From: Candidatus Woesearchaeota archaeon
GTDB taxonomy: Archaea > Nanobdellota > Nanobdellia > Woesearchaeales > DSVV01
NCBI GenBank assembly: GCA_016192995.1
Contig: JACPTB010000002.1
Location: 98,283-162,282, forward strand
Direction of reading: 5' to 3'
Length of the DNA stretch: 64,000 bases
The position numbers were made by a program, and so were the translations under genes. The notes below the pieces were generated by a model, which was given only the letters and a program-made list of their open reading frames with translations, made no database searches and was not told where the DNA came from. Below are positions 6,450-57,766 of the stretch, one piece after another (the stretch's first letter is position 1; every line of letters starts with the position of its first letter).

Positions 6450-6455
6450 TATTTA

Positions 6456-6632
6456 GAGAACTTTGCAAAATTATGGTTACTGCCAATTTCGTGAGCATTT
6501 TCGAAATATTTATCGGGCAATTTTCGAGGTTCCTTGCCGACAGGCAAGTCTTATAATCCCGATCTTTAGTCGAGATTATATTTATAGAGAGAAAATTGCT
6601 TTGTTTAACAAAGATCTCAATGCGAACTGGCT
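6456..6632 (+). mobile_element. MITE-like repeat, family 1, copy A (degenerate right end, nested insertion in core loop)
   Basis: left end GAGAACTTTGCAAAATTATGGTTACTGCC shared with copies at 43079 and 48447; internal hairpin core 6517-6599 interrupted by ~53-nt insert. Confidence 0.7.
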
Positions 6633-11864: not shown

Positions 11865-12021
11865 GTATGTAATAAGTCTTGTATGGTTTTAGCGCCAGTT
11901 CAGCTTTTGAAGTGTGTTTCAATTGGATTTTTCTCTCTGGAACTCCGAAAAATCCCCAAAATGTATTTAAGAAGAGCTTCACAAAAGTAGGCGCTAAAAC
12001 CCCAGACGACTTATTACATAC
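11865..12021 (-). mobile_element. MITE-like element, family 2, copy B (157 bp) with TIR and 7-bp TSD
   Basis: TIR GTATGTAATAAGTC / GACTTATTACATAC; flanked by CACAAAA on both sides (11857-11863 and 12022-12028); core hairpin 11925-11955. Confidence 0.75.
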
Positions 12022-33587: not shown

Positions 33588-33843
33588 TACGTAATAAGTC
33601 TGGGGTTTTAGCACCTACTTTTGTGAAGCTGTTCTTATATTTGCTGTGAGGATTTTTCGGGGTTCCTTGCCGATAGGCAAGTCTTATAATCCCAGACGCA
33701 AGCCAAATTATGACTCCTTGATTTATAAGAAAAATCCAATTGAAACACACTTCAAAAGCTGAACTGGCGCTACCTGAATCCGAAGGATCTCAGGGATTAA
33801 AAATAGTAATTTTTAATAAAACCATAAAAGACTTATTACGTAC
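33587..33843 (+). mobile_element. MITE-like element, family 2, copy C (257 bp) with TIR and 8-bp TSD
   Basis: TIR GTACGTAATAAGTCT / AGACTTATTACGTAC; direct repeat GTCGAGTA at 33579-33586 and 33844-33851; core hairpin 33650-33737 carrying a nested insert. Confidence 0.85.
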
Positions 33844-42301: not shown

Positions 42302-43117
42302 ATGTACGAAGAACTATTCCGCGAAATTGGCTTAAGTCCAAACGAAGCTAGAATTTACGAAGCATTGCTCCAAACAGGCGATGCTTCAGTGCAGACTATT
42401 GCAATTAAGGCAAACATTCATCGGAGAAATGCATATGATGCTTTAAGCAGACTTTTAGAAAAAGGATTAATCTCCCAAACCATTCTCAGCAATGAGCAGC
42501 ACTTCAAAGCAACCAATCCAGAACGATTGCTTTCCATGATAAAAGAAAAAGAAGATAAAATAACAAAAGCGCTTCCGGAAATCAAGCAAAAGTTTTTTCA
42601 AAAACAAGAAAAAGAACAAGCATATATCTACAAAGGCATCCAAGGATTCAGAAATTACATGCAGGATATTCTTGATGTTGGCAAAGATGTTTATTGCATT
42701 GGCGCTAAAGGTGGATGGTTTGAACCACGATTAAAAACATTCAGATTTAGATTCTATGAAGAACTCAAAAAAAAGAACGTCAAATGCTACCATTTATTTG
42801 ATGCAGAAATGATGCAACAGCAGAACGAAGCTGAAGGACCTGTACCAGTACATCTCCATGAAGCACGATTTTTACCTGAAAAATATTCCACACACTCAGC
42901 AATTGATATTTTAGATGATCGTGTCATTACTTTCACTGGATTAAATATTAACAAGCTTGATGATGATGTCACTATATTTGTGTTAATAAGCAAAAAACTA
43001 GCTGATGATTACAAAAAATGGTTTTGGCTGATGTGGAATGCAAGTTCCCCAATTGATAAAGGAGAAGAAAAAGCTAAAGAGAACTTTGCAAAATTATGGT
43101 TACTGCCTATTTTGTGA
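42302..43117 (+). CDS. trmB: TrmB-family transcription regulator (paralog 2); last 13 codons MITE-derived
   Basis: REIGLSPNEARIYEALLQTGDASVQTIAIKANIHRRNAYDALSRLLEKGL; C-terminus ENFAKLWLLPIL encoded by MITE copy D. Confidence 0.65.
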   Translation: MYEELFREIGLSPNEARIYEALLQTGDASVQTIAIKANIHRRNAYDALSRLLEKGLISQTILSNEQHFKATNPERLLSMIKEKEDKITKALPEIKQKFFQKQEKEQAYIYKGIQGFRNYMQDILDVGKDVYCIGAKGGWFEPRLKTFRFRFYEELKKKNVKCYHLFDAEMMQQQNEAEGPVPVHLHEARFLPEKYSTHSAIDILDDRVITFTGLNINKLDDDVTIFVLISKKLADDYKKWFWLMWNASSPIDKGEEKAKENFAKLWLLPIL

Positions 43118-43222
43118 GCATTTTCGAAATACTTATCGGGCAATTTTCGGAGTTCCAGAGAGAAAATTGCTTTGTTTAACAAAGATCTCAATGCGAACTG
43201 GCAGTAACCCGAGCTTTGCATT
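43079..43222 (+). mobile_element. MITE-like repeat, family 1, copy D (right end truncated)
   Basis: GAGAACTTTGCAAAATTATGGTTACTGCC ... GGCAGTAACCCGAGCTTTGCA; core hairpin 43140-43170. Confidence 0.75.
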
Positions 43223-43482: not shown

Positions 43483-46400
43483 ATGAATGAACAAAAAATC
43501 CTGCGAATTAAAAAAAGAACTGGTGAATATGTTGGATTTGATCTGAAGAAAATTTCTAATGCTATTTTCAAAGCTGCCCAGGCAGTGGGAGGTTCTGATT
43601 ATAAAATCTCAGAACGATTAGCAGAACAAGTTTTTGACATGCTCAATGAACAGGACTTGAAAGAAGACATACCTTCAGTGGAAGATGTTCAGGATTGCGT
43701 TGAAAAAGTGCTTATTGAAACAGGACATGCAAAAACAGCAAAAGCTTTTATCTTATATAGACAAAAACGTGCAGAAGCACGATTAAAAGCTGATGCATTA
43801 GTTGGTATAAAAGGTTTGGAAGAAAAGCAAGATCCTTTTGGCGTGAATGAAGAATTATTCGGCAGTTCATTAACCAGCCATAATATCAAAGTTACGGTAA
43901 CTGAACCAATTGCAAAAATGTTTACGTATAACAGCAAATTATCCAAGTTAGTGGATAAAAATAAAATTAATGCCTATAGAAAATTATTTTATATGCTCAA
44001 GGATATGCAGAAGGAGGGTTCGTTGCCATTGCATCCTGCAAATGATTATTTAGCAGGCAATGAACTTGCCATGGATATTTACAGGAAAAAATATTATGTC
44101 CACGATCTTGATGATAACCTTATTGAGCAGCGTCCGGAAGATGTATTTGTAAGGCTTGGTTCTTATCTTGCATCTATTGAAGAAGATGAAGACAATCAAG
44201 TGTATTTTGCCCAGGAATTCTATAAAATGCTTTATGAAGGATATTTTGTGCCTGGCGGCAGAGTAATTGCTGGAGCTGGAGATTTATATAGATTAAAAAC
44301 ATTAGCAAATTGCTTTGTTTCAGTGATGGAAGATGATAACATTGAATCTATTTACAAAGCTGCTTTCGAATGTGCGCGAACATATTCATATGGGGGAGGA
44401 ATTGGCGTTGATATTTCTACCCTGCGTCCAAGAGAAGCTGTGGTACATAATGCAGCAAATTTCTCAACAGGCAGCGTTTCATTCATGGAAATCTACTCAT
44501 TAACAACAGGGTTAATTGGTCAAGCTGGAAGGCGAGGCGCATTAATGCTAACTATTGATGTTAAGCATCCTGATATTCTTAATTTTATTAGAGTCAAACA
44601 AGAATCAAATTGGGTGACAAAACAGATTAGGGAGCAATGCAGCTGGTCAGGAAAATTCAACGCTGAACAGCTGGATGCGATTGAAAAACAAGTTCGTGAA
44701 AACACCCAGGTAAGGTTTGCAAATATTAGCATGAAAGTTACTGATGAATTCATGACTGCTGTTGAAGAGCAAAATAAGTATGGAAAGGATAAAATAGTAG
44801 TGTATAAAAAATTTAGCAAATTGATTATTAATAGAGTTAACCAAAGCAAAGAAATGAATTTTGCCTTTGGCATTCCTTCAAAATATTTAGAGAATTATGA
44901 GTTATATAAAGTATTTGAAACCATTGAAGAAGCAAATGAGTTTATACATAAAGAAACAAACAAACAGATCTCCAAGCAATTGCTTGAAAATGTGCAGAAC
45001 AGGGACATTTATGGAGATGTAATTGTACCAGTAGAATCACAAAATTATGATTTAGCAGTGAGATATTCAGGTGATTATTTATTATATTTTAGTTCTGAAC
45101 CTGCAGGAGAAACAAGAAGATTAGTAAAAGCGCGGGATATTTGGGATGAATTTGTTAAAGGTAATTATCAAACAGCTGAGCCAGGATTAATATTCTGGTC
45201 AAGAATGACAAAGTATTCACCTTCTAATTATATAGGGAGACCAATTGCAAGTACAAACCCCTGTATTGCAGGAAACTCACAGGTATCAACAAGTAAAGGA
45301 TTGCAGCAAATAAAAGAGCTTGTTGGTAAAACGCCTCAGATTCTAACTGACAACCGAGTGCCTATACAAGTGAGAGATACTAACGGAAGAATTATGTTGC
45401 TCGAACAAAAACAACAAGGAGTAAGTTTTGACACTATAGAAGCAGCATGGTCATCGGGAATTAAAGAAACCTATAAACTTACCACAAAAAAGGGCTATGA
45501 AATCACTGCAACAGGTGATCATAAGATTATGACTACTGAAGGTTTTAAGCAGTTACATGAACTTACACCTAAAGATAAAATTTTAATCCAAAAAGGAGAA
45601 GGCATGGGAAACAATGATAAGCTATTATCTATTGAAAGAGATGAAATTATCAAAGGAGATAATAATCATATCTATCATTACAAATTCCCCACAACATGGT
45701 CAAAAGAACTTGGGCAATTGCTTGGTTGGACAGTAGGAGATGGATTTATCACTCCTGAACCAGATAATAGACTTGGGTTAGTATTTAGTAAAGAAGATGA
45801 AGACGTGATGAGCCAGTTAAAGAAGTTTATTGAGGAGATATATGGAAAAGAAACAAAACCAAGCATCAGAGAGTCTACAACACAATTAAGATACCATAGT
45901 AAATATTTTTGTGATTTTCTACGTAGATTAGGCATCAAAAGTGTAAAAGCTGAACTTAAGCAAGTTCCGCATAGGATATTTACTGCGCCAAAAGAAGCAG
46001 TAGTAGGATTTTTACAGGGATTGTTTACTGCTGATGGAACTATGGCAGTTGGCGAAAAAGGGAATTATATTCGATTAACTTCTAAGTCAGAAAAGCTTCT
46101 GAAAGAAATACAAATAATACTTATTAACTTAGGGATGTTATCTACAATCTATGAACGCCATCGAACTCCTCAGAAAAAATTTAATTACTATAATGCAGCT
46201 GGAGAATATAAAGAGTACATAACAGATGGGAAATTATGGGAGTTAAGTATAACTAAAGGAAGCTTGCAGCGATTTGTTGAAGAAATTGGGTTTATAGGAA
46301 GTAAACACCAAGAAAGAATAAAAGTATTTCTCACAAAGAAACAATACCAAGAACACTTTTACGATACTATAAAAAGCATAGAACCACAGGGAAAACAAGA

Positions 46401-47730
46401 AGTATTTGATCTAACAGAACCACGAACACATTCTTTTATAGCTAATGGCATTGTTATTTCAAATTGTGGTGAAGTGCCATTAGAAGACGGCGGCGCTTGT
46501 AATCTTGGATCAATTAATCTTTCTCGGTTAGTAATTGATGGTTTTACTGATACTGCAAGAATTAACTGGAACGAACTTGAACGAGTAACAAAGTTGGCTA
46601 CACGATTTTTAGATAATGTTGTTGGCTGGAATATTTCATTGAATGCTCTTGATAAACAACGGAGTGCTGCTGCAGAAACACGAAGACTTGGTTTGGGTGT
46701 TATGGGAATTGCAGATATGTTATTTCAGCTTGGTTTAGAATATGATAGTGAAGAGGGTATAGCAGTTATTGAGAAAGTTTGTCAGGTTATTGCTAATGCA
46801 GGTTATCGTGAATCCGCAGAATTAGCTGAAGAAAAGGGAGCTTCACCAGTATTTGATTATAACAAATACAGCCGCAACCCATTTTTTAAAGAAGCTCTTG
46901 ATGACAATACTAAAGAATTAGTCAAGAAAAAAGGATTGCGGAATATTGCAATACTTTCTATTGCGCCAACAGGAACTATTTCAAATATTGTATTAGGGTA
47001 TAAAGGAGAGCAAAAGAATTATATTGGTGTTAGCGGCGGTGTTGAACCGGTATTTGCAATATTTTACACGAGAAGAAGTGAAAATTTCGGCAACAAACGA
47101 TTTAACATCTTCCATTCAACAGTAAGCGCTTATTTGGATAAAAAAGGGCTCCAGGAAAAAGCGCAGTATGCAACAAGTGAAGACGAACTCCGCCAACTGT
47201 TGCCTGGATGCTTTTTTAGAACTGCCCATTATATTGAGCCTGAAAAAAGAGTTTTAATTCAGGGAGACTGCCAAAAATATACTGACCATAGTATTTCATC
47301 AACCGTCAATTTACCTGAAAGCATAAGCCCTGAAACCATTTCAGAGATTTACATTAAAGCATGGAAATTTGGCTTAAAAGGGATCACTATTTACCGTGAT
47401 GGAAGCAGGTACCCTATTTTAAGCATTCAGCAACAGCAAAGCGCATTTCAAGATTTCAAGAAAAAACAATTCAAATATGTCTCTGATGGAAAAGAAATCA
47501 TAGTAAGAGGCGACCAAGTTATAAAGCTGCCTCAGGGAAAGCTTTCAACGCCGTATCATGCGCAGAGAGAAAACATTCAAGGGATAGTGTTAACCGAGAT
47601 CACTGATCAACCAGCGATAACTGAAGAAGACAGTTCTAATAAAAATGAAGATCATAAAGATGATAACAAAGCTAAAGTCTGCACTATTAGTTTTGAAGAT
47701 GGAAAGCTTGTTAAATCATGCTCAGAGTAA
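43483..47730 (+). CDS. nrdJ: class II (adenosylcobalamin-dependent) ribonucleotide reductase with ATP-cone and intein
   Basis: N-terminal ATP-cone ILRIKKRTGEYVGFDLKKISNAIFKA; catalytic TNP-C...GEVPLEDGGACNLGSINL; C-terminal GLKGITIYRDGSR and terminal Cys pair. Confidence 0.85.
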   Translation: MNEQKILRIKKRTGEYVGFDLKKISNAIFKAAQAVGGSDYKISERLAEQVFDMLNEQDLKEDIPSVEDVQDCVEKVLIETGHAKTAKAFILYRQKRAEARLKADALVGIKGLEEKQDPFGVNEELFGSSLTSHNIKVTVTEPIAKMFTYNSKLSKLVDKNKINAYRKLFYMLKDMQKEGSLPLHPANDYLAGNELAMDIYRKKYYVHDLDDNLIEQRPEDVFVRLGSYLASIEEDEDNQVYFAQEFYKMLYEGYFVPGGRVIAGAGDLYRLKTLANCFVSVMEDDNIESIYKAAFECARTYSYGGGIGVDISTLRPREAVVHNAANFSTGSVSFMEIYSLTTGLIGQAGRRGALMLTIDVKHPDILNFIRVKQESNWVTKQIREQCSWSGKFNAEQLDAIEKQVRENTQVRFANISMKVTDEFMTAVEEQNKYGKDKIVVYKKFSKLIINRVNQSKEMNFAFGIPSKYLENYELYKVFETIEEANEFIHKETNKQISKQLLENVQNRDIYGDVIVPVESQNYDLAVRYSGDYLLYFSSEPAGETRRLVKARDIWDEFVKGNYQTAEPGLIFWSRMTKYSPSNYIGRPIASTNPCIAGNSQVSTSKGLQQIKELVGKTPQILTDNRVPIQVRDTNGRIMLLEQKQQGVSFDTIEAAWSSGIKETYKLTTKKGYEITATGDHKIMTTEGFKQLHELTPKDKILIQKGEGMGNNDKLLSIERDEIIKGDNNHIYHYKFPTTWSKELGQLLGWTVGDGFITPEPDNRLGLVFSKEDEDVMSQLKKFIEEIYGKETKPSIRESTTQLRYHSKYFCDFLRRLGIKSVKAELKQVPHRIFTAPKEAVVGFLQGLFTADGTMAVGEKGNYIRLTSKSEKLLKEIQIILINLGMLSTIYERHRTPQKKFNYYNAAGEYKEYITDGKLWELSITKGSLQRFVEEIGFIGSKHQERIKVFLTKKQYQEHFYDTIKSIEPQGKQEVFDLTEPRTHSFIANGIVISNCGEVPLEDGGACNLGSINLSRLVIDGFTDTARINWNELERVTKLATRFLDNVVGWNISLNALDKQRSAAAETRRLGLGVMGIADMLFQLGLEYDSEEGIAVIEKVCQVIANAGYRESAELAEEKGASPVFDYNKYSRNPFFKEALDDNTKELVKKKGLRNIAILSIAPTGTISNIVLGYKGEQKNYIGVSGGVEPVFAIFYTRRSENFGNKRFNIFHSTVSAYLDKKGLQEKAQYATSEDELRQLLPGCFFRTAHYIEPEKRVLIQGDCQKYTDHSISSTVNLPESISPETISEIYIKAWKFGLKGITIYRDGSRYPILSIQQQQSAFQDFKKKQFKYVSDGKEIIVRGDQVIKLPQGKLSTPYHAQRENIQGIVLTEITDQPAITEEDSSNKNEDHKDDNKAKVCTISFEDGKLVKSCSE
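45262..46464 (+). other. intein (401 aa) with LAGLIDADG homing-endonuclease domain, inserted before catalytic Cys of nrdJ
   Basis: N-terminal splice CIAGNS, block B TGDHKIMT, LAGLIDADG motifs LLGWTVGDGF and VVGFLQGLFTADG, C-terminal HSFIANGIVISN followed by extein Cys. Confidence 0.8.
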
Positions 47731-47828
47731 GAATTTCTTTTCCTTTTTTATTATCACTTGATGATTAAGGATATTTATTAATAAGTAGAGCTTATTAGAT
47801 ACAAGAACTTTACAAAATAGGTACTATT

Positions 47829-48446
47829 ATGGCTAGATATGGAAAAATCCAGGTATATACCGGAGATGGAAAAGGAAAAACAACAGCATCATTAGGATTA
47901 GCTCTGAGAACTGTTGGCCAAGGCGGTAAAGTATTTATTGTGCAATTTATGAAAGGCGGCGCATACACCGGTGAATTTATCAGCATCAAAAATTTCCTCC
48001 CAAAGATTGATATTATACAATTTGGAAGGGGCTGTGTTAAAGAAAAAAAACAAATGAAATTATTAGGGATTAATGAAGGAGCAAAATATTTTGATTTTGT
48101 GAGAGAAGATATTGAATGCGGACCTTGCAGATATTGTTTTCTTAATGACCAGGAACAAGTAAAATTCGTGAAAAGCGCTTTTGCCTTAGCGCAGAAGTTA
48201 ACTGCTTCAGAAGATTATGATTTAATTATTCTTGATGAAGTTAATGTAGCATTGAAATTAGGATTTTTGAGCATTGAAGAAGTGCTTGAATTAATGGAAA
48301 AAAAACACCCGCAATTGGAGTTAATAATGACCGGCAGAGATGCCCATGAAAAAGTAATGGAGAAAGCAGATTTAGTTACTGAAATGAAATTAGTCAAGCA
48401 TTATTTCGACAAAGGCACTTCTGCAAGAAGAGGGATTGAGTATTAA
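47829..48446 (+). CDS. cobO: ATP:corrinoid adenosyltransferase (CobO/CobA/BtuR family)
   Basis: VYTGDGKGKTTASLGLALRTVGQGGKVFIVQFMKG P-loop signature. Confidence 0.8.
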   Translation: MARYGKIQVYTGDGKGKTTASLGLALRTVGQGGKVFIVQFMKGGAYTGEFISIKNFLPKIDIIQFGRGCVKEKKQMKLLGINEGAKYFDFVREDIECGPCRYCFLNDQEQVKFVKSAFALAQKLTASEDYDLIILDEVNVALKLGFLSIEEVLELMEKKHPQLELIMTGRDAHEKVMEKADLVTEMKLVKHYFDKGTSARRGIEY

Positions 48447-48608
48447 GAGAACTTTGCAAAATCATGGTTACTGCCTATTTTGTGAGCATTTTCGAAATAC
48501 TTATCGAGCAATTTTCGGAGTTCCAGAGAGAAAATTGCTTTGTTAAAAAGATATCTCAATGCGAACCGGCAGTAACCCGAGCTTTGCGAGTATTTTGCAA
48601 AGTTCTCC
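48447..48608 (+). mobile_element. MITE-like repeat, family 1, copy E (162 bp, intact palindrome)
   Basis: 16-bp perfect TIR GAGAACTTTGCAAAAT / ATTTTGCAAAGTTCTC, inner IR GGTTACTGCC / GGCAGTAACC; core hairpin 48508-48538. Confidence 0.8.
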
Positions 48609-48631
48609 TAAGTTTATGTAGGTTTAAGAAT

Positions 48632-50200
48632 TTAAGCTCTAAAACCAATGGAACTATAAGCATCACAAAATTTTTTAATTCTCCTGTCTTCTTTTTTATT
48701 TTCAGCTGGATTGGTATGACGAGAAACTAAACTAAGTGCCTTACCAAAGTCATCTGAAGAAATTGTTACGCCTGAATAATCTGCTTCAACTAAACCTGAA
48801 AGAGCTTCAAAAGTATCCCTGCTTCCTGCTTTTCGAGCTGCTGCTCTTTGCAAAGCAAAATGTCCTGCGCGATTGCAAATTTCTGCTAATGCTGCAGGGG
48901 TGTAACCTTCAGTAGCTTGCGCTAATGCATGAATAGTAACCTCTGAAGCTAATGGCTTAGCCCGAGTGTGTATTGCTAAAATTGCATCGCGTATTTTAAG
49001 ATCAGGTAATGGAACATGTAAGACATAACCAATTCTTCCAGGGCGCAAAAATCTATGATCAATTAAATAAGGATCATTAGTAGATCCTGATAATAAAATC
49101 CCTGAACGCTGTATCCCTGATAAATTATTCAACCAATTTGAAGTCGCAGCATGTTGTCCATCACTTGAACCATTAGCATCAAAAAGAAGTGCCTCAATAT
49201 CGTCACAATGGATAATAACTTCAGCTCCGGATTTTTCCCTTAAATCCTCAATAGCTGCTAATATTGAACCTTCATCTTCTACACGATTAGGCCGTGAAAG
49301 TTGAGTGCGTTTATCTAAAACTAATTGCATTGCGCTTAAAGGAATAAATAATGTTTTATAATCACCTGTAGCAAGAGCTTCTGCAATAAGGGTTTTGCCT
49401 GTTCCTTTGACACCTGCTAAAACAACTGATTCAGGTTTGCAGCCAAAATAACGTGCAGCATCTTTATTATTTCCTGAAGCAAATAACGTCCATTTCATAA
49501 ATTCTATAATTTCTTCAAGTCCTGCAATATCTTCTGAAGTTACTGCCCTTAATCCGATGCGTGATAAATCCCGGTATAAGGCGTAGATAAGATTTGCATA
49601 AGGATATGGTTTACCATGATTAAGAATGTAAGCTGTTTGAACAACACGCTGGGCAAAATCAAGTTCTCGTATATCATGCTGTTCCCTGATTTCTACTAAT
49701 GCTCTACCATCATAAAGCCAGTTTCCATCTTTTGAGCGTTGAGAAGCTTGTTCTTTGGTAAGAAATTTTCTGCAAACCCATATTCCTGTTGAGCCTGCTT
49801 CTTGAAAACCCCAATCCTTAAGAAGATAACCAATAGTAGTTTCACTTACTCCTGCATTCCAAGTAACATACTTACTCGCTGGTCGTTTGCCACCAAGAGG
49901 GTGAGAACGACATTGAATTTTATTTGGAGCATGAATATATCTTGCTAAATCTTCTAAAGCATCCATCTGCTCCTCAGTTATTCTTGGAAGATCCCAGTGT
50001 GCAATATGCCTGTATTGAAGATATCTATCTTGACCTTCTGATCGAGATTTGCTTACTAAAGGACAACTCAAAGCATCAGGTCTTAATCCACCAATGCTAT
50101 CAATAGCAGAATAAATAATACGATATATAGTTTGCAATACCTCTAGTTTATGAGGATCTAAAACAGTTAAAAGTGGATTGCTTTCATATCCCATACCCAA
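48632..50200 (-). CDS. classic-clade AAA ATPase with ~270-aa N-terminal domain of unknown function; compositionally atypical
   Basis: Walker A GVKGTGKT, Walker B IIHCDDIE, second region of homology FLRPGRIGYVLHVPLPD; A/G/R/L-rich unlike neighbours. Confidence 0.6.
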   Translation of the reverse strand: MGMGYESNPLLTVLDPHKLEVLQTIYRIIYSAIDSIGGLRPDALSCPLVSKSRSEGQDRYLQYRHIAHWDLPRITEEQMDALEDLARYIHAPNKIQCRSHPLGGKRPASKYVTWNAGVSETTIGYLLKDWGFQEAGSTGIWVCRKFLTKEQASQRSKDGNWLYDGRALVEIREQHDIRELDFAQRVVQTAYILNHGKPYPYANLIYALYRDLSRIGLRAVTSEDIAGLEEIIEFMKWTLFASGNNKDAARYFGCKPESVVLAGVKGTGKTLIAEALATGDYKTLFIPLSAMQLVLDKRTQLSRPNRVEDEGSILAAIEDLREKSGAEVIIHCDDIEALLFDANGSSDGQHAATSNWLNNLSGIQRSGILLSGSTNDPYLIDHRFLRPGRIGYVLHVPLPDLKIRDAILAIHTRAKPLASEVTIHALAQATEGYTPAALAEICNRAGHFALQRAAARKAGSRDTFEALSGLVEADYSGVTISSDDFGKALSLVSRHTNPAENKKEDRRIKKFCDAYSSIGFRA

Positions 50201-50330
50201 AGGGAGATTAACTATTATTTAAAAAATAGCATTAATTATGTAACTACTAAATTAAGACAATTATAATAACTTACATTTTATAAACGAAATAATCATCCCA
50301 AAATTAAAAAGTAGCTGAAAAGGCAATGCT

Positions 50331-52361
50331 ATGCCCCTTGAAAAAGTCATTAAACGGAATGGTGAAACTGTAGTTTTTGATCCAAAAAAGATCACAGATG
50401 CATTGTACAAAGCAGCGCAAGCTATTGGAGGAACTGATGAAGAGCTCTCTAAAGCATTAACAAAAAAGATTGTAGCAAAGATAGAAGAATTATTTCCTGA
50501 CAAAATCCCCCATGTTGAAGATGTTCAGGATGTTGTTGAGCGTGTTTTAATAGAAGACAATCATGTAAAAACAGCAAAAGCATATATTTTGTATAGGGAA
50601 CGCCAAAAAAATATCCGGGAGGTAAAACAGTCATTAGTAGGAGGATATGTTGATAAGCGCTTTACTATTAATGCATTAAAAATTCTCAAAGAACGATTAT
50701 TAATGAAAAAAGAAGATGGCGCTGTTGAAACGCCTGAAGATATGTTTAGAAGAGTAGCAAAAGAAATAGCAAAAGCAGATAAACAATATGATAATGAGCC
50801 AAACCTGAAAGAAACTGAAGATAAGTTTTTCGAGTGTTTAAACAAGCTTGATTTTTTGCCAAACTCGCCCTGCTTAATGAACGCAGGAACCAAAAATCAG
50901 CAGTTAATTTCATGCTATGTCCTACCAATTGAAGACAGCACTGAAAGTATTTATACAACATTAAAAAATGCTGCAATGGTGCATCGTACAGGTTCAGGAA
51001 CAGGCTTTTCTTTTTCCAATTTAAGACCAAAAGAAGATACGATCGATGATTCTCGTGGATTTTCAGCAGGGCCAATTCCATTTATGCATGTCTATGATAA
51101 ATCAACAGAAATAATCAAGAAAACTGGTTTAAGGCGTGGCGCAAACATGGCAGTGTTGCGTGTTGATCACCCCAATATCCTCGATTTTATTACCGCAAAA
51201 GAAAATCCCCATCACTTGAGAAACTTCAACATCTCTGTTGGCATTACAAAAGAATTTATGGATGCATTAGACAACAGAAAACGATATCCATTAATTAATC
51301 CGCGAACAAAGCAGGAAGTTCGTTTATTGCCTGCTAAAGAGGTCTTTGATTTAATTGCAACAATGTCGTGGAAAAATGGTGAGCCAGGAGTTATTTTCCT
51401 TGATACTATTAATGAGAAGAACCCTGTTCCTGAACTTGGTGAAATAAAAACAACCTCTGCCTGCGGAGAAGTGCCTTTGCTTGAATATGAAGCATGCCCG
51501 CTTGGCTCAATAAACTTATCTAATATGGTGCAAGGAGGCAGGGTCAATTTAGCTGCATTGCGGGACACTGCGTGGATTGCAGTGCATTTTCTTGATAATG
51601 TTATTGATGTAAATAAATACACCTTAAAAGACAGTGAAAAAATAACTAATGATAATAGAAAAATAGGAGTTGGAGTTATGGGTTTTGCAGATATGCTGTA
51701 TCAGTTAGGGGTTCCTTATAATAGTGAAGAAGCAATAAAAGTAGCAGAAAGAATCATGAAATTTATTCGTGATGAAGCAAGATTAGCTTCAGAAGCTCTA
51801 GCAAAAAAAAGAGGAGTATTTGCAAATTATGAAAAAAGCATATATGCAAAAAAAGGAATAAAGCAAAGAAATGCGACAACAACTGCTATTGCGCCAACAG
51901 GAACAATCTCATTAATTGCTGATTGTTCTTCAGGCATTGAACCGAATTTCGCTTTAAGTTACATGAAAAAAATCACCGGTGGGGATGAGTTATTATATGT
52001 TAATAAGCATTTAAAAAGCGAATTATTGAAAAGAGAGATTTATTCTGAAGATTTAATGAAAGAAATTGCATCAAAAGGATCACTCCAATCATTTTTGGAT
52101 TTAGCATCAGAAATCAGAAAAGTGTTTGTTATTAGCCATGAAATACCTGCAGAATATCATGTATTAATCCAAGCAGCATTTCAAAAATATTGCGATAATG
52201 CAGTTTCAAAGAGCGTTAATTTAGAGTACACTTCAAGCAAAGAAGATGTCGTTAAAACCTTCAAGCTTGCTTACAAACTAGGGTGTAAAGGAATAACCAT
52301 TTATCGAGATAGAAGCAGAGAAGATCAGATTTTAACACTATTAGGGGGAGAAGCAATATGA
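50331..52361 (+). CDS. nrdJ: class II ribonucleotide reductase (short paralog, no intein)
   Basis: ATP-cone VIKRNGETVVFDPKKITDALYKA; TSACGEVPLLEYEACPLGSINL; GCKGITIYRDRSR. Confidence 0.8.
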   Translation: MPLEKVIKRNGETVVFDPKKITDALYKAAQAIGGTDEELSKALTKKIVAKIEELFPDKIPHVEDVQDVVERVLIEDNHVKTAKAYILYRERQKNIREVKQSLVGGYVDKRFTINALKILKERLLMKKEDGAVETPEDMFRRVAKEIAKADKQYDNEPNLKETEDKFFECLNKLDFLPNSPCLMNAGTKNQQLISCYVLPIEDSTESIYTTLKNAAMVHRTGSGTGFSFSNLRPKEDTIDDSRGFSAGPIPFMHVYDKSTEIIKKTGLRRGANMAVLRVDHPNILDFITAKENPHHLRNFNISVGITKEFMDALDNRKRYPLINPRTKQEVRLLPAKEVFDLIATMSWKNGEPGVIFLDTINEKNPVPELGEIKTTSACGEVPLLEYEACPLGSINLSNMVQGGRVNLAALRDTAWIAVHFLDNVIDVNKYTLKDSEKITNDNRKIGVGVMGFADMLYQLGVPYNSEEAIKVAERIMKFIRDEARLASEALAKKRGVFANYEKSIYAKKGIKQRNATTTAIAPTGTISLIADCSSGIEPNFALSYMKKITGGDELLYVNKHLKSELLKREIYSEDLMKEIASKGSLQSFLDLASEIRKVFVISHEIPAEYHVLIQAAFQKYCDNAVSKSVNLEYTSSKEDVVKTFKLAYKLGCKGITIYRDRSREDQILTLLGGEAI

Positions 52362-52915
52362 TATTGAGCGATATTGATATTAAAAAGGAATTGGAAAAAG
52401 GAGACTTGCTTATTGAAAAAATGACCTTCAACCAAATTGGCCCTTGTTCAGTTGATTTAACCCTTGGCAATACCTTTATGGTTTTCAAACATGCTGATAT
52501 TACCCATGTTGATCCAAAAAAGATTGATCGGGAATCATTAATGTCAGAAACAATTAAAGAAGAGGATAAGCCATTTATCATTCACCCAGGAGAGTTCGTG
52601 CTTGGTGCAACAAAAGAACGAGTAAGAGTTCCGAGTTATTTGGTAGGAAGATTAGATGGAAGAAGTTCTTGGGGAAGATTAGGTATTATTGTGCATTCAA
52701 CTGCTGGTTCTGTGCATCCTGGCTGGGATGGCCAGCTTACCTTGGAGATTGCAAATATCTCAAAACTCCCTGTTGCATTATATCCAGGAATGAAAATATG
52801 CCAGATTAGCTTCCAGCAACTAACATCACCAGCAGAAGAGCCTTATCATAAAAAGCAGAATGCCAAATACATTAATCAAGTAGGCCCAGGAGCAACCAGA
52901 GTAGGAGAAGATTAA
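52358..52915 (+). CDS. dcd: dCTP deaminase
   Basis: VDLTLGNTF, GRLDGRSSWGRLGIIVH, GQLTLEIAN; overlaps nrdJ stop by 4 nt. Confidence 0.85.
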   Translation: MILSDIDIKKELEKGDLLIEKMTFNQIGPCSVDLTLGNTFMVFKHADITHVDPKKIDRESLMSETIKEEDKPFIIHPGEFVLGATKERVRVPSYLVGRLDGRSSWGRLGIIVHSTAGSVHPGWDGQLTLEIANISKLPVALYPGMKICQISFQQLTSPAEEPYHKKQNAKYINQVGPGATRVGED

Positions 52916-52941: not shown

Positions 52942-53463
52942 ATGGCATGGCATGAACATCTCCGTAGAGACCTTAGGGAGCATCAAGAATTAAGACTTGC
53001 CTTAATAGATAACCTTGAAGCAGTTATTGAAGAAGATGCAAAGGCAATCGAAGTATTTACTGAAGATAATGTAGATCTAAGGATAACTCAAAAAAGAGTA
53101 CGACAAGACTTACCAGATGATTTTTCTTCTGATCAAACAAGGTATTCTCTTGCAGCGGTTTATTTTGCCAATGCTAGATATTTTGGAATAGCACCAGATC
53201 ATAGAAACGATAGACTCCAACTAGTTATTCATCGAAAAACTCCAGTAAATAACATAGCAACCTATGACTATGAAAGTAATGATCCTTATCCCCATGTAAT
53301 AAAAATTCCGCATACTGATTTCAAGAAGGTGAAAGATTTTTTAGAATCATTAGATGCAGAAACAAGACATGCTGTCCACTACAATATGATAGGAAGAAAT
53401 CGAAAAACAACTGGAAATCTAGCAACAAGAGCAGAGCTAGTAATTACAGAAACTATAGACTAG
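52942..53463 (+). CDS. hypothetical protein (possibly N-terminal part of a longer interrupted gene)
   Basis: 173 aa; frame stays open through the TAG at 53461-53463 for 46 more codons into the 53602 ORF. Confidence 0.35.
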   Translation: MAWHEHLRRDLREHQELRLALIDNLEAVIEEDAKAIEVFTEDNVDLRITQKRVRQDLPDDFSSDQTRYSLAAVYFANARYFGIAPDHRNDRLQLVIHRKTPVNNIATYDYESNDPYPHVIKIPHTDFKKVKDFLESLDAETRHAVHYNMIGRNRKTTGNLATRAELVITETID

Positions 53464-53601: not shown

Positions 53602-54027
53602 ATGCAGCTATATTGGTTGATACGATTGCCAATAAGAGAAAAACCACAAAACACTGAGGTATTTAAAGAATTAAGAACAATGCTAAAACAGGTAACAGGC
53701 ATTGCTGAAGATATAAATACATATTTGAAAAGAACAAGAATATTGTATCTTGTAAACCAAGCAAGAAGAAGAGTAAAAGAATTTTATTCAGGAAAGAAAC
53801 CTTATTCATTACCATTGGAAAAAAGAGCTTTTGAAACAAGACAATATGCTTTAGAAAAGTTACCTTATGAAGTTCCTGAAAGATATGGTGTCATATTGGA
53901 TGGAGCAACCATCACAAGATTCGCTTCACAACTCGATTATGTAGCTTTAAAATTAATAACACAAACACCAGAATTATTATATGCTGAAGCGCAACAGAGA
54001 GAAGCTGAACTAAGAAAAGTTGCATAA
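53602..54027 (+). CDS. hypothetical protein (possibly C-terminal part of interrupted gene)
   Basis: 141 aa in the same frame as the upstream ORF. Confidence 0.35.
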   Translation: MQLYWLIRLPIREKPQNTEVFKELRTMLKQVTGIAEDINTYLKRTRILYLVNQARRRVKEFYSGKKPYSLPLEKRAFETRQYALEKLPYEVPERYGVILDGATITRFASQLDYVALKLITQTPELLYAEAQQREAELRKVA

Positions 54028-57608: not shown

Positions 57609-57766
57609 CTCAGGTGAAAATGTAGTTTTTGGCATCTTTTGGTGAAGCTCTTCTTAATTTTACCTTGAGGATTTTTCGGAGTGCCAGAGAGAAAAATCCA
57701 ATCGAAATACTCTTCAAGAGCTGAACTGATGCCAAAACCGAGGCTATGCCGAGATTTTCACCTGAG
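57609..57766 (+). mobile_element. MITE-like element, family 2 variant, copy F (158 bp)
   Basis: 13-bp TIR CTCAGGTGAAAAT / ATTTTCACCTGAG; core hairpin 57669-57699 GGATTTTTCGGAGTGCCAGAGAGAAAAATCC. Confidence 0.75.

What the first reader, a model, noticed from the sequence alone, without database searches (positions are those of the whole stretch)
43483..52915. Deoxynucleotide-supply island: two class II RNR paralogs, corrinoid adenosyltransferase and dCTP deaminase clustered
A long nrdJ (1014-aa mature, with intein) and a short nrdJ (676 aa) both have ATP-cones and the GxKGITIYRDxSR tail. They flank cobO, which makes the adenosylcobalamin cofactor that class II RNR requires. The short nrdJ overlaps dcd by 4 nt. 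Cofactor-activation and dNTP genes are not usually this tightly co-located. The island also contains MITE copies D and E and a foreign-looking AAA ATPase, suggesting rearrangement or mobility of the region.
Basis: partly seen in the sequence, partly recalled or inferred. Interest (0 to 1): 0.5.

Follow-up and report, generated by a model that had tools for sequence, protein, structure and literature searches.

The report
Two-reductase B12 cluster with degenerate paralogue
A small-genome archaeon (Woesearchaeota) keeps its B12-dependent DNA-precursor enzyme, the gene that activates the B12 cofactor, and a second, active-site-altered copy of the enzyme together in a gene cluster conserved across its relatives; the second copy is probably not an ordinary reductase.

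Summary
The long nrdJ is 1415 aa (1014 aa after removing a 401-aa intein), followed by cobO, an AAA ATPase on the opposite strand, a short 676-aa nrdJ, and dcd with an ATGA overlap.

The cluster is not an unusual or mobile island. The order "canonical nrdJ, corrinoid adenosyltransferase, short nrdJ" recurs in about a dozen independent DPANN contigs. Single nrdJ-cobO operons are the rule in DPANN and CPR genomes.

The two reductases are ancient, unrelated subfamilies (29-34% identity). The long one carries the PGGR (triphosphate-type) apical loop and the short one PNSP (diphosphate-type), a pairing already described.

The new point concerns the short copy. It belongs to a clade that lacks the C-terminal cysteine tail and has the finger loop S-A-C-G/A-E instead of the N-P-C-G-E found in all 73 tailed relatives. 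The βA cysteine varies among its closest relatives. The ATP-cone, effector site and loop 2 stay conserved, and dN/dS is about 0.08.

My best reading (about 0.45) is a nucleotide-sensing auxiliary paralogue. The rivals are a functional diphosphate reductase with unusual reduction chemistry, or a different radical chemistry.

The parts
42302..43117 (+). TrmB-family transcriptional regulator directly upstream of the long nrdJ. It is a conserved neighbour of long-type nrdJ.
   Evidence: PF01978 E=9.7e-14. A TrmB gene sits upstream of the long nrdJ in L095, L096, L102 and L103.
43077..43219 (+). It overlaps the last 13 codons of the TrmB ORF.
   Evidence: The core TTTTCGGAGTTCCAGAGAGAAAA occurs 4 times in the window against 0 expected. 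It is absent from 102 related loci.
43483..47730 (+). Long class II ribonucleotide reductase (NrdJ), 1415 aa as a precursor. It has an ATP-cone, a PGGR apical loop (triphosphate type), an NPCGE finger loop once spliced, a Cys pair, and the C-terminal tail C-x13-C-SE.
   Evidence: PF02867 E=1.4e-96; TIGR02504 scores 487.7 against a cut-off of 399.95.
45262..46464 (+). 401-aa intein with a LAGLIDADG homing endonuclease, inserted immediately before the thiyl-radical cysteine.
   Evidence: PF14890 and PF14528. Boundaries are CIAGNS...VISN|CGEV. The closest relative L095 lacks it (1018 aa), and the same site is occupied in other NrdJ subfamilies.
47829..48446 (+). ATP:corrinoid adenosyltransferase (CobA/CobO/BtuR type).
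   Evidence: PF02572 E=1.4e-56. TIGR00708 scores 162.6, just under its 167.75 cut-off. The P-loop aligns to PDB 1G5R/4HUT.
48445..48587 (+). Second copy of the 143-nt repeat, 95% identical to the first. It starts at the cobO stop codon and underlies the spurious 88-aa ORF at 48464-48730.
   Evidence: The 88-aa ORF has no family hit.
48632..50200 (-). Single-domain classic-clade AAA ATPase with an unassigned 220-aa N-terminal region. It occupies a variable slot and is not part of the conserved module.
   Evidence: PF00004 and PF17862. Only 7 full-length homologues were found. The slot holds unrelated genes in L095, L011 and L006.
50331..52361 (+). Short NrdJ-like paralogue (NrdJ'), 676 aa. It has an ATP-cone, a PNSP apical loop followed by Cys (PNSPC), βA Cys195, the finger loop S376-A-C378-G-E380, βF Cys389-Pro, the motif CKGITIYRDRSR, and no C-terminal Cys tail.
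   Evidence: PF02867 E=1.6e-122. TIGR02504 scores 648.5 (passes); the NF006417 equivalog scores 830 against a cut-off of 961 (fails). Aligned to T. maritima NrdJ.
52358..52915 (+). dCTP deaminase (possibly bifunctional dCTP deaminase/dUTPase), overlapping NrdJ' by ATGA.
   Evidence: TIGR02274 scores 202.7 against 92.8. The best PDB match is 2QXX at E=3e-47. The overlap was read.

Best explanation
The region is a lineage-conserved dNTP-supply module of Woesearchaeota and other DPANN archaea, not a chance or mobile island.

Shown:
- The long NrdJ has every sequence feature of a self-sufficient AdoCbl-dependent reductase. Its PGGR apical loop predicts that it reduces NTPs. It must first splice out a homing-endonuclease intein that sits at the radical cysteine.
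- CobO is a corrinoid adenosyltransferase.
- Dcd is a dCTP deaminase, translationally coupled to the short gene.

Inferred from pathway knowledge:
- CobO converts salvaged corrinoid into the AdoCbl that the reductase consumes.
- Dcd turns dCTP into dUTP/dUMP for thymidylate synthesis.

Shown for the short protein:
- It belongs to a Cys-tail-less, ATP-cone-bearing paralogue clade.
- The ribose-binding Asn of the finger loop is fixed as Ser.
- The βA reducing cysteine is dispensable among close relatives.
- The ATP-cone, the dNTP effector-site residues, loop 2 and the C-terminal KGITxYRDxSR motif are all retained under strong purifying selection.
- It is almost always encoded beside a canonical NrdJ.

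Committed inference (about 0.45): NrdJ' no longer performs autonomous multiple-turnover ribonucleotide reduction. It acts as a nucleotide-sensing auxiliary subunit. It binds ATP/dATP and dNTP effectors, and perhaps AdoCbl. Through this it modulates or supports the canonical reductase, either by hetero-oligomerising with it or by buffering effector or cofactor.
For: Conserved module:
- Long NrdJ, adenosyltransferase and short NrdJ' are adjacent in the window and in L006/7, a 697-kb JGI contig, L009/10, L011, L012, L013, L095, L096 and L098.
- L102 has long plus short without cobO.
- The adenosyltransferase is replaced by the non-homologous PduO type in L009.
- nrdJ-cobO adjacency holds in 21/24 DPANN/CPR loci.

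Active-site divergence:
- All 73 Cys-tailed relatives have invariant T93, C134, N320, P321, C322, G323, E324, C333 and N334 (T. maritima numbering).
- 35 of 47 tail-less relatives deviate at N320, to Ser in 30 and Asp in 5.
- The βA Cys is lost in 17 of 47, including Thr or Ala inside the window's own S-A-C-A-E clade.
- Of 228 columns at least 95% conserved in canonical enzymes, 179 are kept in the clade. Of the 11 fixed replacements, 5-6 sit in the active site: T181C, V197A, G222S, N376S, P377A, N390P.

Retained features:
- Across all degenerate groups the cone KRxG..F stays, as do the equivalents of effector residues D141/K158/R171, loop-2 RRGANM and CKGxTxYRDxSR. The finger loop and Cys pair decay. 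One representative has even lost the thiyl Cys.

Selection and domain complementarity:
- dN/dS is 0.08 for the short gene, the same as the long one at 0.07.
- In L013 and L102 the long partner has no ATP-cone while the short one keeps it.

Literature:
- N320/E324 bind the substrate 3'-OH; S91/R207 bind phosphates; D141/K158/R171 bind effector (PMC4728125, Table 4).
- NxCxE is shared by classes O, I and II (PMC9669993).
Against: - The window's own protein still has the thiyl Cys, Glu and both reducing cysteines, plus a newly fixed Cys in the apical loop. Residual or altered catalysis cannot be excluded.
- The thiyl Cys is kept in 47/47 close tail-less relatives. A pure pseudoenzyme has no obvious need for it.
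- Loss of the Cys tail is weak evidence. 37 of 120 long-type NrdJs with canonical NPC[GA]E also lack C-terminal cysteines. One of them (L103) has no second reductase within 10 kb on either side.
- The canonical partner differs between lineages: Pyrococcus-like PGGR type here, an 824-aa Tm-like type in L014, an 870-aa Zn-finger type in L009. This argues against an old, specific heterodimer interface.
- There is no physical-interaction evidence of any kind. The AF2 model was too poor to use (pLDDT 65).
- Here the short gene forms an operon with dcd, which fits an enzyme in dNTP synthesis equally well.
Confidence: 0.45

Rival explanations
1. Both proteins are ordinary working class II reductases with complementary substrate phosphorylation level: the long one an NTP reductase and the short one an NDP reductase. 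This is the pairing described for most genomes with two nrdJ genes. Under this view the Asn-to-Ser change is tolerated, and the tail-less enzyme is re-reduced by another route.
For: - The apical loops are PGGR (long) and PNSP (short). The motif rule, and the finding that 69% of multi-nrdJ genomes combine both types, come from PMC8365446.
- The short protein passes TIGR02504 (648.5 against 399.95).
- It keeps the thiyl Cys, Glu, both Cys, the substrate-phosphate Ser and the loop-2 Arg.
- dN/dS is 0.08.
- It forms an operon with dcd.
- Cys-tail-less but otherwise canonical long NrdJs exist, apparently without a neighbouring second reductase.
Against: - The finger-loop Asn that binds the 3'-OH is invariant in 73/73 tailed relatives and is part of the NxCxE signature of classes O/I/II. 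Here it is Ser.
- From memory, not verified here: E. coli N437 substitutions abolish catalysis (Kasrayan et al. 2002).
- Close relatives sharing the same derived substitutions have replaced the βA Cys by Thr or Ala. No known RNR lacks that cysteine (PMC4493059).
- The protein scores below the NF006417 equivalog cut-off (830 against 961).
Confidence: 0.25
2. NrdJ' is a neofunctionalised radical enzyme or cofactor handler. It would keep AdoCbl binding and the thiyl-radical cysteine but perform different chemistry. Candidates are reduction with an active-site reductant such as formate, dehydration of the 2',3'-diol to a 3'-keto-2'-deoxynucleotide, or holding and passing AdoCbl between the adenosyltransferase and the reductase.
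For: - The substitutions are specific and fixed rather than random: N to S, P to A, N to P, and a gained invariant Cys at PNSP-C.
- The thiyl Cys is kept in 47/47 and Glu in 42/47.
- The C-terminal CKGITxYRDxSR motif is invariant. It occupies the place where the radical enters in class I (this last point is an inference).
- The link to an adenosyltransferase is constant, even through a non-orthologous CobA-to-PduO replacement.
Against: - More distant tail-less groups lose Glu and both Cys, and in one case the thiyl Cys. That is what relaxed selection on catalysis predicts.
- No conserved partner enzyme, such as a ketoreductase or a formate source, is found in the neighbourhoods.
- cobO linkage is already explained by the canonical NrdJ, because single nrdJ-cobO operons are common.
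Confidence: 0.2
3. The cluster is a recently assembled or horizontally mobile island, brought together by the flanking repeats, the intein and a foreign ATPase.
For: - Two 95%-identical repeat copies bracket long nrdJ plus cobO.
- An intein with a homing endonuclease is present.
- The AAA ATPase belongs to a tiny family and sits in a variable slot.
Against: - The gene order TrmB, long nrdJ, cobO, (slot), short nrdJ is kept in relatives that lack the repeat, the intein and the ATPase (L095).
- The same order holds in distant lineages.
- GC of the cluster genes (0.34-0.385) lies within or just above the range of other window ORFs (0.273-0.373).
- All genes are under purifying selection against a 77-86%-identical relative.
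Confidence: 0.05

Closest known systems
Thermotoga maritima dimeric class II RNR (NrdJ; PDB 1XJE/1XJK/3O0N)
   Same: It is the best solved-structure match of the short protein (E=1e-116). The two share the domain order, the PNSP diphosphate-type apical loop, the βA and βF Cys, the thiyl Cys, the Glu, the effector residues (D141, K158, R171 equivalents), the loop-2 Arg and the KGITVYRDGS motif.
   Different: In the short protein Asn320 is Ser, Pro321 is Ala, Asn334 is Pro and Thr93 is Cys. It has no roughly 180-aa cysteine-rich C-terminal domain. It has an N-terminal ATP-cone.
Pyrococcus/Thermoplasma-type archaeal NrdJ (NCBIfam NF006207 / TIGR02504)
   Same: The long protein shares the large barrel insertion, the canonical NPCGE loop, inteins at conserved sites, and AdoCbl-type sequence motifs.
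   Different: The long protein scores far below the NF006207 cut-off (401 against 2400), so it is a separate Woesearchaeota-wide branch. Its tail is a short C-x13-C hairpin rather than a zinc finger.
Genomes with two nrdJ genes of different phosphate specificity (Loderer et al. 2021, PMC8365446)
   Same: A PGGR (NTP-type) and a PNSP (NDP-type) NrdJ occur in one genome, as in 69% of multi-nrdJ genomes.
   Different: That work assumes both copies are active reductases. Here the PNSP copy has a non-canonical finger loop and lies in fixed synteny with the other copy and an adenosyltransferase.
CRD-less second NrdJd in Frankia and Alphaproteobacteria, and the split NrdJa/NrdJb of Pseudomonas aeruginosa (Loderer 2017, PMC5704485; Crona 2015, PMC4520616)
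   Same: A class II α chain without the C-terminal cysteine domain is found only together with a source of that domain, either a second full-length NrdJ or NrdJb.
   Different: No nrdJb-like gene is nearby; the downstream ORFs contain no cysteine. I did not examine the finger loops of those proteins here. They belong to different subclasses and taxa.
Catalytically degenerate partner paralogues such as yeast Rnr4 (β') or the trypanosome AdoMetDC prozyme (analogy from general knowledge; PMC6221367 for the prozyme)
   Same: A paralogue loses catalytic residues, remains under purifying selection, and co-occurs with the active enzyme.
   Different: Those cases have demonstrated heterodimers. No interaction is shown here, and no α-type pseudo-subunit is known for any RNR class (to my knowledge).
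Class III NrdD3 (QCCR finger loop, no Met or Glu)
   Same: It is a natural RNR clade whose finger loop departs from the class signature, which suggests a different reduction mechanism (PMC9669993).
   Different: It differs in class, cofactor and residues. NrdD3 is presumed to be the organism's working reductase.

Membership tests
Class II RNR (NrdJ) - long protein | RNR all-alpha plus ten-stranded barrel domains, and the NrdJ equivalog model scored above its cut-off | tested here: met
   PF00317 and PF02867 (E=1.4e-96). TIGR02504 scores 487.7 against 399.95.
Class II RNR (NrdJ) - long protein | N-P-C-x-E finger loop, βA and βF cysteines, and a C-terminal cysteine pair | tested here: met
   After intein removal the loop reads STNP|CGEVPL...GACNLGS. 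The βA region is LANCFV. The tail is KVCTISFEDGKLVKSCSE.
Class II RNR (NrdJ) - long protein | AdoCbl-dependent nucleotide reduction | not testable with these tools
   This needs an enzyme assay. Only the adjacent adenosyltransferase supports it.
Class II RNR (NrdJ) - short protein | RNR domains, and the NrdJ model scored above its cut-off | tested here: met
   PF02867 E=1.6e-122. TIGR02504 scores 648.5 against 399.95. However, its best equivalog, NF006417, scores 830 against a cut-off of 961.
Class II RNR (NrdJ) - short protein | N-x-C-x-E finger loop (the Asn binds the substrate 3'-OH) | tested here: not met
   The loop is T-S-A-C-G-E. It aligns to T. maritima T-N-P-C-G-E. 73/73 tailed relatives have N.
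Class II RNR (NrdJ) - short protein | Reducing cysteine pair on βA and βF | tested here: met
   C195 and C389 are present. The βA Cys is Thr or Ala in 9 members of the same S-A-C-A-E clade, and is lost in 17/47 tail-less relatives.
Class II RNR (NrdJ) - short protein | C-terminal cysteine pair or cysteine-rich domain for re-reduction | tested here: not met
   The protein ends ...YRDRSREDQILTLLGGEAI with no Cys. No nrdJb-like ORF is nearby. Caveat: 37/120 long-type NrdJs also lack it.
Class II RNR (NrdJ) - short protein | Allosteric specificity site, loop 2, and the diphosphate apical loop P-N-S-P | tested here: met
   D202, R219, R232, RRGANM and PNSP are all present. Residue roles are from PMC4728125 and PMC8365446.
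CobA/CobO/BtuR ATP:corrinoid adenosyltransferase | Family domain with a P-loop | tested here: met
   PF02572 E=1.4e-56. GDGKGKTT aligns to the CobA P-loop (PDB 4HUT/1G5R). TIGR00708 scores 162.6, marginally below its 167.75 cut-off.
dCTP deaminase (Dcd) | Equivalog model scored above its cut-off | tested here: met
   TIGR02274 scores 202.7 against 92.8. The top PDB match is 2QXX at E=3e-47. Whether it is mono- or bifunctional is not resolved.
Intein with homing endonuclease | Cys1, a C-terminal Asn, a nucleophilic +1 residue, a HINT domain and a LAGLIDADG domain | tested here: met
   Boundaries are CIAGNS...VISN|C. PF14890 and PF14528 are present. A close relative lacks the intein (L095).
MITE | Terminal inverted repeats and target-site duplication | tested here: not met
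   The alignment of six copies shows no inverted termini. Only the multi-copy, genome-specific distribution fits.

The most novel reading that the evidence does not exclude
The Cys-tail-less, ATP-cone-bearing NrdJ' proteins with Ser or Asp in place of the finger-loop Asn may form an unrecognised functional class of RNR homologues. On the most novel reading they would keep the AdoCbl and thiyl-radical machinery but do something other than canonical thiol-driven reduction. Two candidates are a reductase using a reductant that needs neither the βA cysteine nor the tail, and a nucleotide 2',3'-diol dehydratase.
Probability: 0.2. Interest if true: 0.85.

Novelty: new variant of a known kind. Interest (0 to 1): 0.6.

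Why it matters
RNR is the only de novo route to DNA precursors. Its catalytic signature (N-x-C-x-E plus the βA and βF cysteines) is treated as universal for classes I and II.

A widespread, strongly conserved paralogue clade abandons that signature but keeps both allosteric sites. It always sits next to a canonical reductase and the cofactor-activating enzyme.

If it is a pseudo-subunit, it would be, to my knowledge, the first α-type one described for an RNR. That would point to a new way of regulating dNTP supply. If instead it is catalytic, it would point to a new reduction chemistry.

It also bears on automatic annotation. These proteins are currently named 'adenosylcobalamin-dependent ribonucleoside-diphosphate reductase', so metabolic reconstructions of DPANN archaea count two reductases where there may be one.

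The nrdJ-cobO linkage further indicates that these B12-auxotrophic symbionts depend on corrinoid salvage for DNA synthesis.

Tried and rejected
- **ATP-cone exchange between the paralogues.** The cones are 51% identical against about 30% for the core, which suggested gene conversion or co-evolution. I rejected this because cones of all NrdJ types are about 50% identical to each other.
- **Large census of the clade.**
  - A clade-specific DNA pattern found only 5 metagenome contigs.
  - The exhaustive profile search uses 50% clusters that merge the clade with canonical enzymes. It did reveal further degenerate lineages.
- **AlphaFold model of NrdJ'.** With a 19-sequence alignment it reached pLDDT 65, with the active-site segments below 50. 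I did not use it, and ran no fold search on it.
- **A separate tail or redoxin gene downstream of dcd.** The 173-aa and 141-aa ORFs have no cysteine and no family hit.
- **The AAA ATPase as a conserved B12-enzyme reactivase.** Rejected because it is absent from all other clusters.
- **Known RNA families for the 143-nt repeat.** None found at gathering or at E<=1. No tRNA was found either.
- **B12 transport genes.** None among the ORFs I scanned against Pfam (roughly half of the window's ORFs of 100 aa or more were not scanned). The nearby ABC transporter is ABC-2/DrrA type. The rest of the genome could not be examined.
- **Literature.** Searches for NrdJ in DPANN/Woesearchaeota or for NrdJ pseudoenzymes found nothing relevant.


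Full report
**Observation**

- Long NrdJ: 43483-47730(+) encodes a 1415-aa protein with an ATP-cone, the RNR all-alpha domain and a barrel domain. The barrel is split by an intein carrying a LAGLIDADG endonuclease.
- Intein: it begins CIAGNS and ends VISN, followed by CGEVPL. This places it at nt 45262-46464, immediately before the thiyl-radical cysteine, and leaves a 1014-aa mature protein.
- cobO: 47829-48446(+) is a CobA/CobO adenosyltransferase whose P-loop aligns to Salmonella CobA.
- AAA ATPase: 48632-50200(-) is a single-domain AAA ATPase.
- Short NrdJ: 50331-52361(+) is a 676-aa NrdJ-type protein.
- dcd: 52358-52915(+) is a dCTP deaminase whose ATG overlaps the preceding TGA.

The organism is a Candidatus Woesearchaeota (DPANN) MAG. 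Both reductases and the ATPase are 100% identical to NCBI proteins from one 189-kb contig.

**The cluster is conserved, not exceptional**

I looked up the genomic surroundings of relatives of the short protein.
- The same order (a longer, canonical NrdJ, then a corrinoid adenosyltransferase, then the short NrdJ) appears in L006/7, a 697-kb JGI contig, L011, L012, L095 and L096.
- Small variations of that order appear in L009/10, L013, L098 and L102.
- In L009 the CobA-type enzyme is replaced by the unrelated PduO-type adenosyltransferase. This is a classic sign of functional coupling.
This is an inference.
- In a GTDB sample, 21 of 24 DPANN/CPR loci with a single nrdJ have cobO or pduO directly downstream, often preceded by nrdR. 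None of the Nitrospirota-type bacterial loci do.
- A TrmB-family regulator precedes the long nrdJ here and in L095, L096, L102 and L103.
- The closest relative (L095, 77-86% protein identity) has the same gene order but lacks the intein, the 143-nt repeat and the AAA ATPase. Its variable slot holds an unrelated 433-aa ORF.

The 'mobile island' reading is therefore not supported. Only the slot between cobO and the short gene is plastic.

**The two reductases are old, different subfamilies**
- Their cores are 29-34% identical.
- In a neighbour-joining tree the short protein nests within T. maritima-like NrdJs, while the long one belongs to a separate Woesearchaeota-wide branch.
- Loderer et al. 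(PMC8365446) showed experimentally that the apical phosphate loop P-N-S-P marks diphosphate reducers and P-[ASG]-G-R marks triphosphate reducers. They also found that 69% of genomes with several nrdJ genes combine the two.
- Here the long protein has PGGR, as do 112 of its 120 closest homologues. The short one has PNSP.

To that extent the pair is a known kind of arrangement.

**What is unusual is the short protein**

I compared 120 close relatives.
- All 73 with C-terminal cysteines have invariant Thr93, Cys134, Asn320, Pro321, Cys322, Gly323, Glu324, Cys333 and Asn334 (T. maritima numbering).
- Of the 47 without C-terminal cysteines, 35 have lost Asn320, to Ser in 30 and Asp in 5.
- The window's protein reads PNSP-C, C195, S376-A-C378-G-E380 and C389-P. 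The HMMER alignment to the T. maritima structure places Ser376 on Asn320 unambiguously.
- Asn320 and Glu324 hydrogen-bond the substrate 3'-OH (PMC4728125, Table 4).
- N-x-C-x-E is described as common to classes O, I and II (PMC9669993).
- Within the window's own S-A-C-[GA]-E clade the βA cysteine is replaced by Thr or Ala in nine sequences from independent assemblies. [quoted passage not shown]
- More distant tail-less lineages also lose the βF Cys and the Glu, and in one representative the thiyl Cys. Some of these lineages derive from PGGR-type ancestors, which suggests repeated origins.

**It is nevertheless a constrained protein**
- dN/dS against L095 is about 0.08, the same as the long NrdJ. 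dS is saturated, so the value is approximate.
- Of 228 columns at least 95% conserved in canonical enzymes, 179 are retained.
- Only 11 columns are fixed to a different residue, and five or six of those line the active site.
- The branch to the clade is about 1.5 times longer than the branch to its tailed sister group.
- Several features stay conserved across every degenerate lineage:
  - the ATP-cone signature;
  - the equivalents of the effector-binding residues D141, K158 and R171;
  - the GGTGFxFS motif;
  - loop-2 RRGANM;
  - the C-terminal CKGxTxYRDxSR motif.

The pattern is that the allosteric sites are kept and the catalytic residues are let go.

**Interpretation**

The long NrdJ, CobO and Dcd form a coherent supply line.
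- Salvaged corrinoid is adenosylated.
- AdoCbl powers NTP reduction.
- dCTP is deaminated toward dTTP synthesis.

These steps are inferred from family membership and pathway knowledge.

For NrdJ' I commit, at about 0.45, to a nucleotide-sensing auxiliary role beside the canonical reductase rather than autonomous reduction. Three observations support this:
- its near-obligate co-location with a canonical NrdJ;
- the decay pattern described above;
- two loci (L013, L102) where the canonical partner lacks an ATP-cone and NrdJ' keeps one.

Several observations count against it.
- This particular protein still has all four catalytic Cys/Glu residues and a newly fixed Cys.
- The thiyl Cys is kept in 47/47 close relatives.
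- The canonical partner differs between lineages.
- Tail loss alone is weak evidence. 37 of 120 long-type NrdJs with normal finger loops also lack C-terminal cysteines. One of these (L103) has no second reductase within 10 kb on either side.
- Here the gene is translationally coupled to dcd.

The rivals are a working NDP reductase with an atypical active site (0.25), altered radical chemistry or cofactor handling (0.2), and a mobile island (0.05).

**Comparison with the literature**
- Tail-less second NrdJ copies that occur only beside a tailed copy have been noted in Frankia and Alphaproteobacteria (PMC5704485). The split NrdJa/NrdJb enzyme is another tail-less precedent.
- Burnim et al. (PMC9669993) counted NPCxE in 3175 of 3347 class II sequences but did not discuss the exceptions.
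- I found no paper describing NrdJ in DPANN, the nrdJ-adenosyltransferase-nrdJ' module, or Asn-less NrdJ paralogues. The library searched is incomplete.

I therefore rate this as a new variant of a known kind.

**Side features**
Four diverged copies lie elsewhere in the window.
- The element is specific to this genome among the sequences fetched. It lacks visible terminal inverted repeats.
- It contains a hairpin with two compensatory pair changes between its two sub-families. It matches no Rfam family. Its nature is open.
- The AAA ATPase belongs to a family with only seven other full-length members and is not part of the conserved module.

Noticed in passing
window 6454-6631, 11885-12007(-), 33598-33772, 43077-43219, 48445-48587, 57638-57739: A genome-specific interspersed repeat family of about 140 nt, in two sub-families. 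Most copies start at or just after the stop codon of a + strand gene (UvrD helicase, Elp3, PhoU-like, TrmB, CobO). Two copies carry an extra 55-100 nt insert right after the GGAGTTCC core. A central hairpin keeps pairing through two compensatory changes. There is no Rfam hit, no visible terminal inverted repeats, and no copy in 102 related loci. It could be a small structured RNA or terminator-linked element rather than a MITE.
   Followed up: partly
window 48632-50200 (-): A single-domain classic AAA ATPase with an unassigned 220-aa N-terminal region. Only 7 full-length homologues (43-62% identity) were found among 5.8 billion proteins. It gives a weak hit to the anti-phage IetA/IteA ATPase models. 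It sits in the variable slot between cobO and nrdJ', which holds other cargo in relatives, including a ParE toxin gene with a small adjacent ORF in L006.
   Followed up: partly
window 42302-43117; L095 766-1557; L096 1434-2204; L102 8661-9380; L103 9060-9806: A TrmB-family regulator is a conserved upstream neighbour of the long-type nrdJ in Woesearchaeota. It appears where other DPANN loci have NrdR, so it may be a lineage-specific regulator of RNR expression.
   Followed up: no
proteins P0138, P0141, P0159, P0161, P0166, P0173, P0174 and others; locus L103: About 30% (37/120) of the long-type NrdJ homologues end after a conserved ...LPDGKLTTVYHAMK module with no C-terminal cysteines, although their finger loops are canonical. 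In L103 such a protein has no second RNR within 10 kb on either side. How these enzymes are re-reduced is unexplained.
   Followed up: partly
proteins P0036, P0042, P0066, P0093; L006 14400-18524; L013 5714-9541; window 45262-46464: Inteins occupy exactly the same site, immediately before the thiyl-radical Cys, in both the long-type and the T. maritima-like NrdJ subfamilies. Full-size (LAGLIDADG) and mini-intein versions both occur. Presence is polymorphic between close relatives.
   Followed up: no
window 52942-53463 and 53602-54027 (+): Two cysteine-free ORFs (173 and 141 aa) directly downstream of dcd have no hit in Pfam, NCBIfam or PADLOC. They are conserved with the cluster in same-species contigs L001-L004. 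Their GC3 (0.17-0.19) is lower than that of neighbouring genes.
   Followed up: partly
L042 251-4520; L068 1242-6783; L014 and L015: Other archaeal loci carry two tandem T. maritima-like nrdJ genes (L042, L068) or two fully canonical nrdJ genes flanking cobO (L014, L015). These may be earlier stages of the same paralogue series.
   Followed up: no
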